NCBI GenBank assembly: GCA_014376695.1 | Contig: JACMRA010000016.1 | Location: 47,814-111,813, forward strand | Length of the DNA stretch: 64,000 nt | Direction of reading: 5' to 3' | From: Minisyncoccota bacterium | GTDB taxonomy: Bacteria > Patescibacteriota > JACMRA01 | Shown: positions 13,851 to 18,535 of the stretch, piece by piece | Position numbering within the stretch: the first letter of the stretch is position 1 | Layout of the letters: the number at the start of each line of letters is the position of its first letter | Program-made: the position numbers and the translations under genes | The notes under the pieces: model-generated | Told to the model about the DNA's origin: nothing | Seen by the model: the letters and a program-made list of their open reading frames with translations, nothing else | Database searches by the model: none

Positions 13851-16800
13851 ATGACTAGCTCAGCCATTCAAAAGAACTCCAAATACAATCACCGAGAAAC
13901 CGAAGCCAAATGGGTTAAGCAATGGGAATCTAATCAAACCTACAAAACCCCAGAACTAAAAACCGGTGACAAAAAAAAGTATATTTTGGAGGCTTTTCCC
14001 TATCCCTCAGGCGATGGGCTACATGTTGGACACGCACTTCCAAGTACCGCTGGTGACATTACTAGTCGTTATTACAGGCTCAAGGGATATAAGACACTCC
14101 ATCCAATGGGGTTTGACGCTTTTGGACTACCTACGGAGAATTTTGCTATCAAAAAAGGTATCCCACCACAGCAAACAACCCTGGAATCTATCAAGAATTT
14201 TAAGGTTCAACTCAAAAAACTAGGTGTAGATTATGATTGGACCCGTCAAATTAATACGACCGACCCAAACTACTACAAGTGGACCCAATGGCTATTTCAA
14301 TTGCTCTACAAGCGAGGACTAGCCTACAAAAAAGAAGCCCTAGTCAACTGGGACCCGATTGATAAAACTGTTCTAGCCAATGAGCAGGTTACCAAAGATG
14401 GTACCGCGGAAAGGTCTGGAGCTATAGTTGAGCAAAAACTTATGAGTCAATGGTTTTTTAAGATTACGGACTACGCTGAGCGGCTTTTGACTGATTTGGA
14501 TGGTCTAGATTGGCCAGAAAGTACCAAACAAATGCAACGCAACTGGATAGGCAAGAGCGACGGCGCTGAGGTAGAATTTCAATTAGGCTATGAGGGTGAT
14601 ACGATTAGAGTCTTCACAACGGCCCACGATACAATATATGGGGTGACTTTTTTGGTGATTTCGCCAGAGCATACTTTGGTTGCCCAACTAACGACTGAGG
14701 ACAATAAAACTGCAATGGTAGACTATATTGCCAAAGCTAAGCAGAAGTCGCAATTGGAGCGAACTGACCTTAACAAGGACAAGTCTGGCGTGTTTACAGG
14801 GAGCTACGCAATTCACCCGCTAACAGGCGGCCAAATCCCTATCTGGGTAGCTGATTATGTTCTTACAAGTTACGGAACCGGGGCTGTAATGGCCGTACCT
14901 GGCGAAGATGAGCGGGACTATGAATTTGCTAATAAATATGACTTACCGGTTATTTATACTAACCACACCAATTCTTTTGTATCCTATTCCAAAGAAATCA
15001 AGACCAACAAAGATAAATATACGCTAATTAATTCTGGTGAATTCGACGGCCTAACCTACACTGTAGCTCGAGAGAAAATCCTCGACAAACTAATCGAGCA
15101 TAACCAAGGCAAGGCAGTGACCAACTACCGGCTTCGTGATTGGTCGATCGGTCGCCAGCGATATTGGGGTTGCCCAATTCCAGTGTATTATAAGCCAAGC
15201 AATCAATCAAAAGTGCTTGTTATTATGGTTCACGGAGGTGATAGTACTGGTTCAAGCGAGGACGGACGCCAAGACGATAAAATTACGGATAGGATCGTCG
15301 AAAAAAATCAGTATTCAACTAGTAAAGGCTGTCCTGTTTGGGGGGAGAATTTGGACAAAGTTTTGGACAAGGAAATTTTTGATGTAGTTGCTCCTGTATT
15401 TCCTAACGCCGAGAATGCTTTGTATTCCGAATGGAAACGATTTTTTGAACAGATTATCGAGTCGCAGTTAAAAAATAATCAGTACCAGGATATAGTTGTT
15501 ATCGGACACAGTCTAGGCACAGTTTTCCTGCAGATGTATTTATCCTCTGAAGATTTTAATGAGCGTTTTGGTCAAAAATTGAGCATAATTCAATTAGTTG
15601 GCTGCTGCGAGTCTGAAGGTGATTTTGAGGTTACTGATAATTGGGCTAAAATCAAAAGTCAAGTTGGGCTTATTAAAATACATCACTCACAAGATGATTC
15701 TGTATGCCCTTTCAAATGGGGCCAGTTGTACGCTTCGAAACTTGGACTAGCTAGTTTTGATACTTATTCTAACAAAGGACATTTTGAGCAAGTGAATTTT
15801 GAGGAATTAGCGAACCAATTGCGTTCGAACTTTGTAGGAGCCAAAACCGTTGAAAGTCTAATCCCAGAGCAAGACTTACCTTTAGTCCTTCCTAATGACG
15901 CAAATATGACCAGTGGCAAAATCAAACCACTTGGAGAAAATCTAGATTTTGTTAATTCGGCTAATAAGTTATATGGAGATGGGGCTCAATATGAGGGGGA
16001 CACAATGGATTCTTTTGTTTGTTCGAGTTGGTATTTCTTTAGATATTTGGATCCGAGCAACGTTGCCAAGTTCGCAAGTTCAGAAACTATAAAACAGTGG
16101 ATGGCCGTGGATCAGTACGTTATTGGAGCTGAGCATTCTACTTTGCACTTACTTTATGCTCGATTTTTTACTAAGGTTTTGTTCGATGAAGGTTTGATTG
16201 ATTTTGTGGAGCCGTTTGTTCAGATGAGGCATCAAGGTTTGATACTCGGTCCCGACGGCCAAAAAATGAGCAAATCCAAAGGTAATACCATTAATCCACT
16301 CGAGGTTTTTGAGCAGTACGGGGCTGACACCCTCCGAATGTATGAGATGTTTATGGGACCGTTCGACCAGCCGAAGCCTTGGAATACTGATAGTATCAAG
16401 GGGGTTAGGCGTTTGATTGAGCGGATTTGGGCAATGCAAGATCGGTGCTATTATTCTAGTGCGGTAGACAGCGCCAGGCTTAGCCAATTAGGTATAATTC
16501 ACGGCCCAAAGAGTGAGCGAACTATCGAAAAAGAACTGCAAAAACTTACCAAAAAAATTGGTGAGGATATCGAGTCGTATAGCTTCAATACCTGTATATC
16601 TGAGTTTATGAAATTTGTGAATAAGGTTGAGGAGGTCGGCGGACTAACTAATTATCAATTCTTGCGATTTTTGATTTTGTTACATCCTTTTGCGCCATTT
16701 GTGACCGAAGAAATTTATAGTCAGTTTGAGTTACCTAACAAAAAACCAAGCATATCTATGGAACAGTGGCCTGAATTTGAGGCACAAATGCTAGTTGATA

Positions 16801-16985
16801 CCACGATCAAATATATGGTACAGGTGAATGGAAAAGTTCGAGGCGAGTTTGAAATTGAGACAAATATGCCCGAAGCAGCGGTCATAGCCGTAGCCAAAGA
16901 ATCGGTATCCAAGTGGCTAGAAGACAAAGAAATTAAATTCTGTAAGGTTGTAACTGGAAAGCTAGTTAGTTTGGTTGTCTCTTAA
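13851..16985 (+). CDS. leuS: leucyl-tRNA synthetase with an inserted alpha/beta-hydrolase domain
   Basis: HVGH (HIGH), CP1 editing motifs TTAHDT and GTGAVMAVPGEDERDYEFA, RDWSIGRQRYWG, SSWYFFRY and KMSKS. It is 1044 aa because of the insertion at 15192-15860. Confidence 0.95.
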   Translation: MTSSAIQKNSKYNHRETEAKWVKQWESNQTYKTPELKTGDKKKYILEAFPYPSGDGLHVGHALPSTAGDITSRYYRLKGYKTLHPMGFDAFGLPTENFAIKKGIPPQQTTLESIKNFKVQLKKLGVDYDWTRQINTTDPNYYKWTQWLFQLLYKRGLAYKKEALVNWDPIDKTVLANEQVTKDGTAERSGAIVEQKLMSQWFFKITDYAERLLTDLDGLDWPESTKQMQRNWIGKSDGAEVEFQLGYEGDTIRVFTTAHDTIYGVTFLVISPEHTLVAQLTTEDNKTAMVDYIAKAKQKSQLERTDLNKDKSGVFTGSYAIHPLTGGQIPIWVADYVLTSYGTGAVMAVPGEDERDYEFANKYDLPVIYTNHTNSFVSYSKEIKTNKDKYTLINSGEFDGLTYTVAREKILDKLIEHNQGKAVTNYRLRDWSIGRQRYWGCPIPVYYKPSNQSKVLVIMVHGGDSTGSSEDGRQDDKITDRIVEKNQYSTSKGCPVWGENLDKVLDKEIFDVVAPVFPNAENALYSEWKRFFEQIIESQLKNNQYQDIVVIGHSLGTVFLQMYLSSEDFNERFGQKLSIIQLVGCCESEGDFEVTDNWAKIKSQVGLIKIHHSQDDSVCPFKWGQLYASKLGLASFDTYSNKGHFEQVNFEELANQLRSNFVGAKTVESLIPEQDLPLVLPNDANMTSGKIKPLGENLDFVNSANKLYGDGAQYEGDTMDSFVCSSWYFFRYLDPSNVAKFASSETIKQWMAVDQYVIGAEHSTLHLLYARFFTKVLFDEGLIDFVEPFVQMRHQGLILGPDGQKMSKSKGNTINPLEVFEQYGADTLRMYEMFMGPFDQPKPWNTDSIKGVRRLIERIWAMQDRCYYSSAVDSARLSQLGIIHGPKSERTIEKELQKLTKKIGEDIESYSFNTCISEFMKFVNKVEEVGGLTNYQFLRFLILLHPFAPFVTEEIYSQFELPNKKPSISMEQWPEFEAQMLVDTTIKYMVQVNGKVRGEFEIETNMPEAAVIAVAKESVSKWLEDKEIKFCKVVTGKLVSLVVS
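15192..15860 (+). other. in-frame insertion of about 223 aa in leuS: YdeN/RBBP9-like serine hydrolase (alpha/beta fold) domain
   Basis: Ordered motifs KVLVIMVHGG, PVFPN..YSEW, VVIGHSLGT (Ser codon 15510-15512), IHHSQDDSVCPF and NKGHFE. Flanked by LeuRS motifs RQRYWGCPIPVYY and IPEQDLPLVLP. Confidence 0.7.
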
Positions 16986-17810
16986 AACTGGAGGTGGGAT
17001 AAGTTTAAACCCCAAGATAAATTTCTCAAGCTTGCTTTGAAGCTTGCCGCGATTAGCTGTTCTCAAATGAATTGTAGAAGAATTAGCATCCCAAAAGTCA
17101 ACAAAAAAAATGTCAAGGCTGACTAAATGGTTATGTACTTGCCACTTTAGTAACCTCAATTCACTTAGTTGTAACCCTCCGCGGTGAAGACTCCTATCGT
17201 TAAGGTAGATTGCCAATTCAGGTTGGGTCTCATACATAATTTCTTCGTTATACCAATTAGTAGGCTTTAGTGCAATCATTTTGGCAAGGGTTATTTGGGC
17301 AGTTTCAATTCTTAGTAGATTGACTTGATCGTGTATTGCATAGCAAAATGTTTCGATATGTTCAATAGGGCTACTTGGATGTTCTATTAACTGCAAAGGA
17401 GATGAAAAACCCTTAACGTGCCTAAAGTCGAGCATAAAATATAATCGATACAAACAATAATTATATATTTGATGTAGGTTTTCGGGACCGGTATCCGACA
17501 AGTCTGGTTGAAAAATTAATCCGGTATCCAAACTTTCGACTTTGTCGGAGTATCTTTCGGGGAATGGATCCTTGTATTTATATGATTGATCTCTACCTTG
17601 ATTACCTAAATCTACGGTCGTGCTAAGCTGGTTGACTATACTTTGTACAGTTGCTCGAGATAACCCGTATTCATCAAAAATGCTGATTACCAAAGGAAGG
17701 TAAATAAACTGGTAAAGAATACTGATAAATTCTTGATCTAATCTTTCTTTTTGCCTAAGCCGTGCTATTGCCAACTTAAGGTCGAGGCAAAGTGCTGAGG
17801 GAGTATCCAT
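16962..17810 (-). CDS. hypothetical protein
   Basis: 282-aa ORF. Its 3' end overlaps the leuS 3' end by 24 nt (convergent). No motif recognised. Confidence 0.5.
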   Translation of the reverse strand: MDTPSALCLDLKLAIARLRQKERLDQEFISILYQFIYLPLVISIFDEYGLSRATVQSIVNQLSTTVDLGNQGRDQSYKYKDPFPERYSDKVESLDTGLIFQPDLSDTGPENLHQIYNYCLYRLYFMLDFRHVKGFSSPLQLIEHPSSPIEHIETFCYAIHDQVNLLRIETAQITLAKMIALKPTNWYNEEIMYETQPELAIYLNDRSLHRGGLQLSELRLLKWQVHNHLVSLDIFFVDFWDANSSTIHLRTANRGKLQSKLEKFILGFKLIPPPVLRDNQTN

Positions 17811-17863: not shown

Positions 17864-18535
17864 TCAATAGGGTAATTTCTCTCTGTGGGCTTTTATTCGT
17901 GGGCCTACACTGGTATTTAATGGCCCGTTGTAATCGTAACCACTTTCCGTAGTTGGCTCCTGATCACCTGGGGTATAATCTGAAATAGCATCTGGAGCCT
18001 TCATTAATCCCCATAGCAAGCCCGCAATATTCCGACCTACTTGACCTAGAGGTAGTCCAGGGAAATTTGTAGGGACCGAAGGGTAAACCCCAGCCAAATA
18101 AAATAAGGCACATACTTGTAATTCTCCCAATTTCTCACCGAGCGGATTTAATTGGCAAGGCCAGATCAGTTTCCCTAATAATTGAATTGAATCGCAGGAA
18201 GCTGGTATTTTAGCGACTATACTTTCGGCTAAGATTTTCAAGTCTTCAGATTCTAGCTTCTTGTCTCTTGCCCTCACGAATAGATCAATAAGTGGAGTTA
18301 ATTTAGTTTCAACGACTCCCGAGAGTAAAGGGTTCTCCCCATTTTGGCCTCCTTTAATAGTGTGCTCAGGATTCTTAAAAGCTATCAAAGCGTAGGTGGC
18401 ACAGATACATGTCGCCCCTATAGCCAGTCCTAATAATTTCTTTGCCGTGACTATAGTTTCTTCTAATTCTTTTAATCTTGATTCACAATGAGCTTCAGGC
18501 ATAACTGAGTTATTTCGATAGTTTATGTACTTCAA
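17864..18535 (-). CDS. hypothetical protein with one TM helix
   Basis: 223-aa ORF with TM helix LLGLAIGATCICATYALIAF. The start is uncertain: track TTG 18535 or the internal ATG giving MPEAH. Confidence 0.45.
   Translation of the reverse strand: MKYINYRNNSVMPEAHCESRLKELEETIVTAKKLLGLAIGATCICATYALIAFKNPEHTIKGGQNGENPLLSGVVETKLTPLIDLFVRARDKKLESEDLKILAESIVAKIPASCDSIQLLGKLIWPCQLNPLGEKLGELQVCALFYLAGVYPSVPTNFPGLPLGQVGRNIAGLLWGLMKAPDAISDYTPGDQEPTTESGYDYNGPLNTSVGPRIKAHREKLPY

What the first reader, a model, noticed from the sequence alone, without database searches (positions are those of the whole stretch)
15192..15860. Leucyl-tRNA synthetase with an embedded alpha/beta serine-hydrolase domain
The 1044-aa ORF has every LeuRS landmark: HVGH, CP1 editing motifs TTAHDT and GTGAVMAVPGEDERDYEFA, RDWSIGRQRYWG, DSFVCSSWYFFRY and KMSKS. 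Between RQRYWGCPIPVYY and IPEQDLPLVLP there are about 223 extra residues. As far as I recall, that stretch is only about a dozen residues in E. coli LeuRS and a small Cys knuckle in Thermus-type enzymes. The extra residues contain the alpha/beta-hydrolase catalytic elements in canonical order and spacing. These are KVLVIMVHGG (strand plus HG oxyanion), VVIGHSLGT (GxSxG nucleophile elbow, Ser codon 15510-15512), IHHSQDDSVCPF (acid) and NKGHFE (His), plus PVFPN..YSEW. Together they resemble the small YdeN/RBBP9-type 'Ser_hydrolase' family. Both junctions are in frame, there are no stops, and there are no intein-like termini. The CP1 editing domain looks intact, so this is an added hydrolytic module, not a replacement. 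I know of no described aminoacyl-tRNA synthetase with an embedded alpha/beta-hydrolase. An esterase positioned next to the aminoacylation site could act on aminoacyl esters or adenylates, or be an unrelated moonlighting module (speculation).
Basis: partly seen in the sequence, partly recalled or inferred. Interest (0 to 1): 0.85.

Follow-up and report, generated by a model that had tools for sequence, protein, structure and literature searches.

The report
Serine hydrolase nested inside leucyl-tRNA synthetase
A complete small serine-hydrolase enzyme sits in frame inside a surface loop of the essential leucyl-tRNA synthetase of an ultra-small (CPR/Parcubacteria) bacterium, and it is one case of a wider habit in these bacteria, not found in the literature I searched, of nesting small enzymes inside tRNA synthetases.

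Summary
ORF 13851-16985 (+) encodes a 1044-aa bacterial-type LeuRS (TIGR00396, 912 bits) with intact HIGH, KMSKS and CP1 editing motifs. Residues 448-667 (nt 15192-15851) are extra. An 85%-identical, syntenic ortholog has only the six residues NDGQEY at that hairpin. The insert matches, end to end, a ~200-aa free-standing CPR hydrolase (closest 45% identity). Modelled alone it gives pLDDT 88.6, and its best structural matches are RBBP9 and YdeN. It keeps the family-invariant Ser554/Asp616/His644 triad and the HGG motif.

It is not unique. About 19 of the 120 closest LeuRS carry this hydrolase family, at three different loops. The window's closest embedded relatives sit in a different loop. The same family is nested in ValRS, CysRS and AlaRS, and fused to CCA-adding enzymes. 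The same LeuRS hot spots also host NUDIX, Ham1, HAD-like, GNAT and a TIR-flanked DUF559 element, with rapid turnover between sister lineages.

I found no paper describing this. The architecture and likely catalytic competence are shown. The substrate is inferred only: aminoacyl esters or adenylates, or an unrelated housekeeping job.

The parts
13851..16985 (+). leuS ORF, 1044 aa plus stop: bacterial-type leucyl-tRNA synthetase carrying the nested hydrolase
   Evidence: ORF; TIGR00396, 912 bits against a cutoff of 548.4; (identical to MBC7406623.1, MAG Candidatus Parcubacteria/Paceibacterota).
13851..15191 (+). LeuRS N-terminal part (residues 1-447): first Rossmann half with HIGH (HVGH, nt 14022-14033), the CP1 hairpin, the CP1 editing domain and the RDWSIGRQRYWGCPIPVYY strand
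   Evidence: AF2 full-length model has pLDDT above 90 over this part.
14538..15092 (+). CP1 editing domain (residues 230-414). The Thr-rich TTAHDT (14616-14633) and GEDERD (14901-14918) motifs are intact
   Evidence: Pfam PF13603, E = 3.6e-62. T257, D353, R355 and D356 are invariant, and T256, D260 and T261 at least 90% conserved, across 116 LeuRS with and without inserts.
15192..15851 (+). Nested RBBP9/YdeN-type alpha/beta serine hydrolase (residues 448-667) with short linkers (KPSNQS... and ...NFVGAKTVES). It replaces a 6-residue hairpin tip
   Evidence: Empty site in ortholog P0002/L001. End-to-end alignment with free-standing 196-210-aa proteins. AF2 pLDDT 88.6. Foldseek top hits RBBP9 7oex (E = 2.6e-10) and YdeN 1uxo.
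15231..15239 (+). HGG motif (H461-G463), predicted oxyanion-hole element after strand beta1
   Evidence: H is 87% and the two G are 98% and 93% conserved in free-standing homologs.
15510..15512 (+). Predicted nucleophile Ser554 in GHSLG
   Evidence: Invariant in 116/116 and 280/280 family members. Aligns with RBBP9 Ser75.
15696..15698 (+). Predicted catalytic acid Asp616 (HSQDD)
   Evidence: Invariant. Aligns with RBBP9 Asp138.
15780..15782 (+). Predicted catalytic His644 (KGHF)
   Evidence: Invariant. Aligns with RBBP9 His165.
15852..16982 (+). LeuRS C-terminal part (residues 668-1044): return strand LIPEQDLPLVLP, second Rossmann half with KMSKS (16263-16277), anticodon-binding domain (about 16518-16883) and C-terminal domain. 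There is no leucine-specific domain
   Evidence: AF2 pLDDT is mostly above 90.

Best explanation
SHOWN. A whole free-standing-type CPR serine hydrolase of about 200 aa (RBBP9/YdeN 'Ser_hydrolase' family) is nested in frame in the tip of a surface beta-hairpin of the aminoacylation domain of a complete LeuRS. This is the position of the Zn2 knuckle in Thermus LeuRS. The hydrolase has no start or stop codon of its own, so it can only be made as part of LeuRS. The product is one polypeptide with three catalytic centres: leucylation, CP1 editing and the Ser554/Asp616/His644 hydrolase. The insert keeps the residues that are invariant in its free-standing relatives, so it is most likely an active enzyme and not a decaying remnant. 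It is absent from an 85%-identical syntenic ortholog, so it was gained or lost recently. It belongs to a recurrent CPR pattern: the same family has entered LeuRS in at least three clades and three loops, has entered ValRS, CysRS and AlaRS, and is fused to CCA-adding enzymes.

INFERRED. Almost all non-'guest' fusion partners are enzymes that handle the aminoacylatable tRNA 3' end. The nearest characterised relative, RBBP9, cleaves single hydrophobic amino acids with a free alpha-amine from amide or ester linkages. I therefore think the module most likely acts as an additional clearance esterase on aminoacyl esters made at or near the synthetase: aminoacyl-tRNA, aminoacyl-adenylate or aminoacyl-nucleoside by-products or mimics. 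It would supplement CP1 editing, not replace it.

The confidence of 0.45 is for the whole statement including this functional step. The architectural part alone I put above 0.9.
For: The host is a bona fide LeuRS with an intact editing site. A precise empty site exists in a syntenic ortholog. The insert corresponds to a complete free-standing protein from first strand to last helix. The AF2 insert model has pLDDT 88.6 and pTM 0.87, with best PDB matches RBBP9 (E = 2.6e-10, TM 0.78) and YdeN. The profile also hits RBBP9 by sequence at E = 4e-8 with the triad aligned. The triad is conserved in embedded copies: Ser 39/39, Asp 38/39, and His in all 33 copies aligned at that column. The window insert keeps 30 of 35 family-conserved positions, within the free-standing range. 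There is no second copy of the family in the 64-kb window. There are at least three separate clades of LeuRS-embedded copies in loops S198, S238 and S433. The window's closest embedded relatives (45% identity) sit in a different loop (S238), and free-standing proteins interleave with them. Other hosts are ValRS (7 representatives), CysRS, AlaRS, CCA-adding enzyme (2) and a 2H phosphoesterase. [quoted passage not shown] It is also reported as a valacyclovir (valyl ester of a nucleoside analogue)-activating enzyme (Shenoy et al. 2020, seen only as a title in the reference list of PMC7730578).
Against: No activity data exist. The RBBP9 residues that hold the alpha-amine are not conserved: Ser76 is Leu in 271/280 members, Tyr99 is Pro or Cys, and Glu108 falls in a variable acidic loop. 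Substrate inference from RBBP9 (23% identity) is therefore weak. The same synthetase loops also host NUDIX, Ham1, HAD-like, GNAT and a mobile DUF559 element, which suggests the synthetase may be only a permissive host. The hydrolase is also fused to Ham1, HAD and NUDIX without any synthetase (P0241, P0270, P0363). Hosts charge four different amino acids (Leu, Val, Cys, Ala), so there is no amino-acid-specific logic. Free-standing genes show no conserved neighbourhood with leuS or other translation genes. In the full-length AF2 model the insert is of low confidence (pLDDT 23-70), and no coordinates were available, so its distance and orientation relative to the LeuRS active sites are unknown.
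Confidence: 0.45

Rival explanations
1. Passenger enzyme. The nested hydrolase is active but has a housekeeping job unrelated to leucylation, perhaps within the nucleotide or metabolite 'house-cleaning' guild of NUDIX, Ham1 and HAD. The synthetase is only a permissive, constitutively expressed host whose surface hairpins tolerate whole domains. Nesting gives co-expression or gene economy in a reduced genome.
For: The same hot spots carry NUDIX, Ham1, HAD-like, GNAT and unknown modules. The hydrolase is also fused to Ham1, HAD, NUDIX and a 2H phosphoesterase without a synthetase. Hosts have four different amino-acid specificities. The CP1 editing site is fully conserved whether or not a hydrolase is present. 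RBBP9's alpha-amine anchors are not conserved.
Against: Among the best 150 representatives, the large hosts were only aminoacyl-tRNA synthetases and CCA-adding enzymes. No other big essential proteins such as polymerases, gyrase or SecA appeared. That pattern is hard to explain by permissiveness alone. Repeated independent entries into LeuRS at three loops suggest selection for the association.
Confidence: 0.35
2. Selfish or neutral in-frame insertion. The module arrived through a mobile or recombination-driven process that targets synthetase genes. It persists because removal or frameshift would kill an essential gene, and its activity is irrelevant to the cell.
For: Presence or absence differs between 85%-identical orthologs. 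Sister LeuRS lineages differ in insert type and site. A DUF559 endonuclease module with 31-nt terminal inverted repeats is translated in frame at the same hairpin in a relative (L002). leuS of the window and its closest ortholog is a recombination-like mosaic, with 48-59% identity in two tracts against 90-100% elsewhere.
Against: The window insert has no terminal inverted or direct repeats, no endonuclease and no intein termini. Its composition is native (GC3 0.35, within the window's ORF range of 0.31-0.48). The triad and most family-conserved positions are retained even in old, diverged LeuRS-specific clades, which argues for purifying selection on catalysis.
Confidence: 0.12
3. Non-catalytic role. 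The hydrolase fold serves as a binding, regulatory or sensor module, for example sensing an amino-acid ester, or as a docking surface, and not as an enzyme.
For: RBBP9 was first described as a protein-binding factor. The older LeuRS-embedded clades are strongly diverged from the free-standing family, keeping only 47-63% of conserved positions.
Against: Ser, Asp and His are kept in essentially all embedded copies, including the diverged ones. The HGG and GHSLG motifs are intact in the window.
Confidence: 0.05
4. Assembly or annotation artefact: a chimeric join of leuS with a hydrolase gene in the metagenome-assembled genome.
For: The sequence comes from a MAG, and only one contig carries exactly this protein.
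Against: Both junctions are in frame at the two strands of one hairpin, and LeuRS continues colinearly. The identical protein is on record from NCBI and from the separate Logan assembly collection. Many other LeuRS from other samples have the same architecture at the same hairpin (P0059, P0066, P0082, P0087) or at other loops.
Confidence: 0.02

Closest known systems
RBBP9 (human; PDB 2QS9, 7OEX, 9FCR) and B. subtilis YdeN (1UXO): Pfam Ser_hydrolase PF06821
   Same: Same small (~190 aa) capless alpha/beta-hydrolase fold. Foldseek E = 2.6e-10 and TM 0.78 to RBBP9, and E = 6e-7 and TM 0.78 to YdeN. Profile-sequence match E = 4e-8. The Ser-Asp-His triad aligns with S75/D138/H165.
   Different: Only 23% identity. 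RBBP9's alpha-amine anchors (S76, Y99, E108) are not conserved. The window clade has an extra ~25-residue KNQYST...PVW loop after HGG. RBBP9 and YdeN are free-standing, whereas this copy is nested inside a synthetase.
Free-standing ~200-aa alpha/beta hydrolases of CPR/Patescibacteria (e.g. P0121-P0126, annotated only as 'alpha/beta hydrolase')
   Same: They are 39-45% identical (BLASTP) over more than 90% of the insert, from first strand to last helix, with the same motifs. These are the evident source family. There are 760 representatives at E <= 1e-3.
   Different: They are separate genes with their own start and stop codons and no conserved link to leuS. The window copy has lost both ends and is spliced into LeuRS with short linkers.
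CAAD-domain insertions in cyanobacterial ValRS, LeuRS, IleRS and GluRS (membrane-anchored synthetases; PMC4893482 and, from my own knowledge, Olmedo-Verd et al. 2011)
   Same: Precedent for one accessory domain being acquired repeatedly by several class I synthetases at different positions without destroying aminoacylation.
   Different: CAAD is a non-catalytic transmembrane anchor confined to cyanobacteria. Here the guest is a soluble enzyme with its own active site, the lineage is CPR, and many guest types share the hot spots.
IleRS with an N-acetyltransferase domain (NCBIfam NF040702 'ileS_w_GNAT'); SepRS fused to the tRNA-Thr-ED editing domain (PMC8762117)
   Same: Synthetases that carry an extra catalytic domain. 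The SepRS fusion is proposed to add a deacylase next to the aminoacylation site. GNAT guests also occur in CPR LeuRS (P0101, P0048).
   Different: Different guest folds. The SepRS fusion is terminal and uses a canonical editing fold. No alpha/beta hydrolase is involved.
The canonical CP1 editing domain of LeuRS, IleRS and ValRS
   Same: A hydrolytic domain nested in the Rossmann fold of a class Ia synthetase. It is the textbook case of domain insertion coupling synthesis and hydrolysis (PMC13114784).
   Different: CP1 is ancient, universal and a different fold. The window enzyme keeps an intact CP1 and adds a second, unrelated hydrolase in another hairpin.

Membership tests
Bacterial-type leucyl-tRNA synthetase (NCBIfam TIGR00396 leuS_bact) | Whole-protein score above the curated equivalog cut-off | tested here: met
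   912 bits against a cut-off of 548.4, in two stretches that break at residue 448. Best PDB relatives are T. thermophilus, N. gonorrhoeae and E. coli LeuRS.
Bacterial-type leucyl-tRNA synthetase | Class I signatures HIGH and KMSKS | tested here: met
   HVGH at residues 58-61 and KMSKS at 805-809.
Bacterial-type leucyl-tRNA synthetase | CP1 editing domain with the Thr-rich motif and the conserved Asp residues | tested here: met
   PF13603, E = 3.6e-62, residues 230-414. The TTAHDT and GEDERD motifs are present. These positions are invariant or at least 90% conserved in 116 LeuRS.
Bacterial-type leucyl-tRNA synthetase | Leucine-specific domain before KMSKS (typical of the family, not universal) | tested here: not met
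   T. thermophilus residues 580-636 have no counterpart, because query residues 800 and 805 align to 579 and 637. This is known to be dispensable: M. mobile LeuRS has the tetrapeptide GKDG instead (PMC3643597).
Bacterial-type leucyl-tRNA synthetase | Leucylation and editing activity | not testable with these tools
   Needs enzyme assays.
Ser_hydrolase (Pfam PF06821; RBBP9/YdeN) within the alpha/beta-hydrolase clan | Significant sequence similarity to family members | tested here: met
   The profile of the insert plus two embedded relatives hits RBBP9 at E = 4e-8. Most of the over 100 free-standing homologs carry precomputed PF06821. The 45%-identical P0003 insert passes Pfam's threshold (23.7 vs 22 bits).
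Ser_hydrolase (Pfam PF06821) | Pfam gathering score reached by the window insert on its own | tested here: inconclusive
   20.4 bits against 22, E = 5e-4. It is the best-scoring family, followed by other alpha/beta-hydrolase families.
Ser_hydrolase (Pfam PF06821) | Small capless alpha/beta-hydrolase fold | tested here: met
   AF2 pLDDT 88.6 and pTM 0.87 with alternating beta/alpha elements. Foldseek top seven hits are RBBP9 and YdeN, with target-normalised TM 0.75-0.79.
Ser_hydrolase (Pfam PF06821) | Nucleophile elbow GxSxG plus Asp and His in the order Ser-Asp-His, with HG(G) after strand 1 | tested here: met
   S554, D616 and H644 are invariant in 116 sequences and align to RBBP9 S75, D138 and H165. 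HGG is at residues 461-463.
RBBP9-like aminoacyl (free alpha-amine) hydrolase specificity | Residues that anchor the substrate alpha-amine (RBBP9 Glu108, Ser76, Tyr99; PMC8866121) | tested here: not met
   By profile alignment, S76 is Leu in 271/280 members, Y99 is Pro or Cys, and E108 lies in a length-variable acidic loop that is shortened in the window clade. The alignment in this loop is uncertain.
Ser_hydrolase (Pfam PF06821) | Hydrolase activity | not testable with these tools
   Needs probe labelling and substrate assays.
Intein | Hint domain, N-terminal Cys/Ser, C-terminal His-Asn followed by Cys/Ser/Thr | tested here: not met
   The insert starts with Lys448, ends ...VES and is followed by Leu668. 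There are no Hint or intein Pfam hits.
TIR-flanked DUF559 in-frame element (seen in the relative P0003) | DUF559 endonuclease domain bounded by ~31-nt inverted repeats | tested here: not met
   No inverted or direct repeats bound the window insert. The TIR sequence is absent from the window at up to 3 mismatches. There is no DUF559 hit.

The most novel reading that the evidence does not exclude
In CPR bacteria, aminoacyl-tRNA synthetase genes (and CCA-adding enzyme genes) act as dedicated landing pads for whole small-enzyme genes. These include the serine hydrolase, NUDIX, Ham1, HAD, GNAT and guanylate kinase, and they are nested in frame at a few hairpins and exchanged rapidly between lineages. 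This would reflect one of two things. Either synthetases form a functional hub in which each guest clears a synthetase by-product or inhibitor (aminoacyl esters or adenylates, Ap4A, PPi, non-canonical NTPs). Or there is a so far unknown domain-level mobility mechanism that writes complete ORFs into essential genes.
Probability: 0.25. Interest if true: 0.85.

Novelty: new variant of a known kind. Interest (0 to 1): 0.72.

Why it matters
Aminoacyl-tRNA synthetases are among the best-studied enzymes. Their accessory domains (editing, tRNA-binding, membrane anchor) have each revealed new biology. I could not find any description of an alpha/beta serine hydrolase nested in a synthetase.

Here the hydrolase is one member of a whole set of small enzymes repeatedly nested in LeuRS, ValRS, CysRS and AlaRS of CPR bacteria. 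If the hydrolase acts on aminoacyl esters or adenylates, it would be a new, fold-independent solution to translational quality control, or to defence against aminoacyl-adenylate-mimicking antibiotics.

If it does not, the pattern still shows an unusual mode of genome economy or domain mobility in ultra-small bacteria. It also offers natural, pre-validated permissive sites for engineering domain insertions into synthetases. Finally, it gives the first contextual clue to the role of a widespread, uncharacterised CPR hydrolase family with 760 representative clusters.

Tried and rejected
- A word-index search with the insert alone found nothing. A profile of three inserts was needed.
- The full-length AF2 model left the insert at pLDDT 23-70, because homologous inserts sit at other loops and do not align. 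It says nothing about domain orientation. A second job with a deep alignment of free-standing homologs solved the domain fold. No coordinates are returned, so distances between termini or to the LeuRS active sites could not be measured.
- Single-linkage clustering of all inserts failed because multi-domain inserts chain everything together. I replaced it with typed representatives plus Pfam.
- The intein reading was rejected.
- The transposon or TIR-element reading for the window insert was rejected, although it is true for the DUF559 module in a relative.
- Foreign composition was rejected. Insert GC is 0.388 and GC3 0.35, against a GC3 range of 0.31-0.48 for window ORFs.
- Separate expression is unlikely. 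There is no start codon with a ribosome-binding site at the left junction and no stop at the right (sequence). Promoter-like and terminator-like sites are at chance level, and there are no Rfam hits.
- The gene neighbourhood of three free-standing homologs showed no conserved partner.
- Scans of GTDB genomes gave one further locus, a Peribacteria LeuRS with the hydrolase at a third loop. Two metagenome scans gave nothing.
- The exact-sequence contig look-up for the window protein returned nothing. The cluster look-up gave its accession.
- The ValRS insertion site is not homologous to the LeuRS S433 site, contrary to my first guess.
- Eight literature searches found no description of the architecture.
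Full report

Yes. ORF 13851..16985 (+) encodes 1044 aa. NCBIfam's bacterial LeuRS equivalog scores 912 bits against a cut-off of 548.4, in two stretches that break at residue 448. Pfam finds the LeuRS editing domain (E = 3.6e-62), the class I catalytic core and the anticodon-binding domain.

- LeuRS motifs: HVGH at 58, TTAHDT at 256, GEDERD at 351, RQRYWG at 435, KMSKS at 805.
- Hydrolase residues: HGG at 461-463, Ser554 (nt 15510-15512), Asp616 (15696-15698), His644 (15780-15782).

The identical protein is MBC7406623.1 from a Candidatus Parcubacteria/Paceibacterota MAG. It is on record from both NCBI and the Logan assemblies.

**2. Exact boundaries and the empty site**

The closest LeuRS is P0002 (831 aa, 85% identity). 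It lies on a syntenic contig, with an arginase-family gene upstream and the same unknown genes downstream.

At the site it reads ...RQRYWGCPIPVYY-NDGQEY-LIPENDLPL. The window reads ...RQRYWGCPIPVYY-[KPSNQS...AKTVES, 220 aa]-LIPEQDLPL. At the DNA level, 18 nt are replaced by 660 nt (15192-15851), in frame.

There are no flanking direct or inverted repeats and no intein termini or Hint domain. The insert's composition lies within the range of the window's genes.

Against T. thermophilus LeuRS, the insert replaces residues 439-446, the first CxxC of the Zn knuckle. This lies in the module called Zn2 in bacterial LeuRS (PMC9424281). The CPR enzymes have no cysteines there.

In the full-length AF2 model the LeuRS scaffold is confident (mean pLDDT 82.9, mostly above 90 outside the insert). 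The strands on either side of the insert (445-449 and 666-670) are predicted as strands.

**3. What the insert is**

Alone, the insert scores just under Pfam's Ser_hydrolase threshold (20.4 vs 22 bits), and a word-index search found nothing.

The LeuRS search supplied two embedded relatives, P0003 and P0008 (45% and 44% identity). A profile of the three gave the following:
- RBBP9 in the PDB at E = 4e-8, with Ser75/Asp138/His165 aligned to the insert's triad.
- 149 hits in the clustered database, mostly free-standing proteins of 190-210 aa from Parcubacteria, Saccharibacteria, Peribacteria, Howlettbacteria and Absconditabacterales.
- 760 representative clusters in an exhaustive HMMER scan, 320 of them at E <= 1e-10.

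The insert aligns with the free-standing proteins from their first strand to their last helix, with the closest at 45% identity. It is therefore a whole gene product minus its start and stop codons.

In 116 aligned sequences the invariant positions include His553, Ser554, Leu555, Ser613, Asp616 and His644.

With that alignment AlphaFold gives pLDDT 88.6 and pTM 0.87. Foldseek's best matches are RBBP9 (7OEX, E = 2.6e-10, TM 0.78) and B. subtilis YdeN (1UXO, TM 0.78), followed by ordinary esterases.

**4. It is one case of a broad pattern**

Of the 120 closest LeuRS, all from uncultivated bacteria and CPR wherever a source names them, 51 carry inserts of at least 40 aa at a few recurrent loops. 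In window numbering these are about residue 206 (S198), about 246 (S238, the first hairpin of CP1), about 385 (S364, inside CP1), about 470 (S433, the window's site), about 890 and about 964.

Pfam identifies the guests as the serine hydrolase, NUDIX, Ham1/ITPase, a small HAD-like module, GNAT, DUF559 and an unknown 127-aa module.

Nineteen of the 120 carry the hydrolase family. They fall into three groups:
- (A) The window (S433) plus P0003 and P0008 (S238). Their nearest relatives are free-standing proteins and a Ham1-NUDIX-hydrolase-HAD polyprotein.
- (B) P0059, P0066, P0082 and P0087 at S433.
- (C) Eleven proteins at S238 or S198.

A Peribacteria species representative adds another S198 case.

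On a neighbour-joining tree of the LeuRS core, sister lineages differ in guest type and site. This indicates frequent gain, loss and replacement.

Outside LeuRS, the same hydrolase family occurs in these contexts:
- nested in ValRS (seven representatives, after the DTWFSS...WPLSTL motif);
- nested in CysRS;
- in AlaRS, together with guanylate kinase and Ham1;
- fused C-terminally to CCA-adding enzymes (two representatives);
- fused to a 2H phosphoesterase, to Ham1 and to HAD.

No other kind of large essential protein appeared as a host among the best 150 representatives.

**5. Is the nested copy functional?**

Embedded copies keep Ser in 39/39, Asp in 38/39 and His in all 33 copies aligned at that column.

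The window insert keeps 30 of the 35 positions that are at least 85% conserved in free-standing proteins. The free-standing mean is 93% and the 5th percentile is 83%. The older LeuRS-specific clades keep only 47-63% of these positions, but they still keep the triad. That pattern looks like adaptation after nesting rather than decay.

The LeuRS editing residues are invariant or nearly so across LeuRS with and without guests. The hydrolase is therefore an addition, not a substitute for CP1.

There is no second copy of the family in the 64-kb window.

**6. How it most likely works**

Shown: the gene encodes one polypeptide with an intact synthetase, an intact editing site and a complete, apparently competent serine hydrolase projecting from a hairpin tip.

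Inferred: what the hydrolase does. Two facts favour a link to aminoacyl esters.
- First, the non-guest partners are almost all enzymes of the tRNA 3' end (four synthetases and the CCA enzyme), with repeated independent entries.
- Second, RBBP9 traps single hydrophobic amino acids including Leu/Ile as acyl-enzyme intermediates. It requires a free alpha-amine and is said to cleave amide, ester or thioester bonds (PMC8866121). It is also reported to activate valacyclovir, a valyl ester of a nucleoside analogue (Shenoy et al. 2020; I saw only its title, in the reference list of PMC7730578).

Several facts argue against the link:
- RBBP9's alpha-amine anchors are not conserved in the CPR family.
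- The same loops host nucleotide-directed enzymes and a mobile element.
- The hydrolase is also fused to those guests without any synthetase.
- The hosts have four different amino-acid specificities.
- Free-standing genes have no informative neighbourhood.

I put about 0.45 on an accessory clearance esterase tied to synthetase chemistry. I put 0.35 on an unrelated passenger enzyme, about 0.12 on a tolerated selfish or neutral insertion, 0.05 on a non-catalytic role and 0.02 on an artefact.

**7. Mechanism of acquisition**

This is unknown. The window junctions carry no repeats.

Two side observations are relevant. In P0003's gene, the DUF559 module at the same hairpin is bounded by 31-nt inverted repeats that are 94% complementary and translated as PSPQPSP.../...GEGWGE. 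It is a mobile element living in frame inside leuS. Also, leuS of the window and of P0002 is a mosaic: residues 61-135 are 48% identical and 728-800 are 59% identical, against 90-100% elsewhere. Intragenic recombination with divergent alleles therefore seems to occur and could move inserts.

**8. Novelty**

Eight full-text searches found no description of a synthetase with an embedded alpha/beta hydrolase, or of the CPR nesting pattern.

Partial precedents:
- domain fusion and swapping noted for CPR TyrRS, LysRS and TrpRS (PMC5370408);
- SepRS fused to an editing domain (PMC8762117);
- CAAD insertions in cyanobacterial synthetases (PMC4893482);
- NCBI's 'ileS_w_GNAT' model;
- JGI's automatic label 'leucyl-tRNA synthetase/predicted alpha/beta hydrolase family esterase' for one homolog.

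I class this as a new variant of a known kind: synthetases with accessory or nested domains.

**9. Verdict**

The finding is real and correctly interpreted at the structural level. Its function remains open. Interest: 0.72.

Noticed in passing
L002:6961-7413 (leuS of P0003, a 60%-identical LeuRS): A DUF559 (Vsr-like endonuclease) module is translated in frame at the same S433 hairpin. It is bounded by 31-nt inverted repeats that are 94% complementary (CCTCACCCCAACCCTCTCC... / ...GGAGAGGGTTGGGGTGAGG). This is a TIR-flanked mobile element living inside an essential ORF. DUF559 sits at S238 or S433 in sister LeuRS lineages. The TIR is absent from the window.
   Followed up: partly
Related LeuRS P0003-P0116, at sites equivalent to window residues about 206, 246, 385, 470, 890 and 964: 51 of the 120 closest LeuRS carry inserts of at least 40 aa at recurrent hairpins. 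The guests are NUDIX, Ham1/ITPase, a small HAD-like module, GNAT, DUF559 and an unknown 127-aa module (P0028, P0030). Up to four guests occur in one protein (P0030, 1426 aa). Distribution on the LeuRS tree is patchy.
   Followed up: partly
Proteins P0249, P0251, P0260, P0291, P0330, P0343, P0351 (ValRS); P0282 (CysRS); P0259 (AlaRS); P0306, P0336 (CCA-adding enzyme); P0369; P0241: The same hydrolase family is nested in ValRS (always after the DTWFSS...WPLSTL motif), in CysRS (with NUDIX and HAD) and in AlaRS (with guanylate kinase and Ham1). It is also fused to CCA-adding enzymes and to a 2H cyclic phosphodiesterase, and occurs in a Ham1-NUDIX-hydrolase-HAD polyprotein without any synthetase.
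   Followed up: partly
window 16240-16280 (LeuRS residues about 796-809): This LeuRS, like its CPR relatives of about 800-830 aa, lacks the leucine-specific domain: T. thermophilus residues 580-636 have no counterpart. It reads GLILGPDGQKMSKS, which recalls the GKDG tetrapeptide of Mycoplasma mobile LeuRS (PMC3643597). It also lacks the Zn2 cysteines.
   Followed up: partly
window 14031-14255 and 16032-16250 (LeuRS residues 61-135 and 728-800): Against the 85%-identical ortholog P0002, these two tracts are only 48% and 59% identical, while the rest of the protein is 90-100% identical. They are the segments after HIGH and before KMSKS, the two Rossmann halves. Synonymous divergence is also higher there. 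This suggests a recombination mosaic or accelerated change around the active site.
   Followed up: partly
L006:3236-6454 (Candidatus Peribacteria, GTDB species representative CAZHIF010000006.1): A 1072-aa LeuRS carries the hydrolase at a third site, inserted between ...AERLLQDLE and QLDWPEK, just before CP1. Unlike the window enzyme, it has an insertion at the leucine-specific-domain position.
   Followed up: partly
window 16962-17810 (-) and 17864-18535 (-): The 3' end of leuS overlaps a convergent 282-aa ORF by 24 nt. This ORF and the next one have no Pfam family, but both are conserved in position in the syntenic contig L001.
   Followed up: no
window 15252-15350 (insert residues about 21-53): The window clade of the hydrolase, both embedded and free-standing members, has an extra conserved loop after the HGG motif (KNQYST.K..PVW.ENL). 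It is modelled at low confidence (pLDDT 53-68). It is absent or different in the wider family and may be a lid or specificity element.
   Followed up: no
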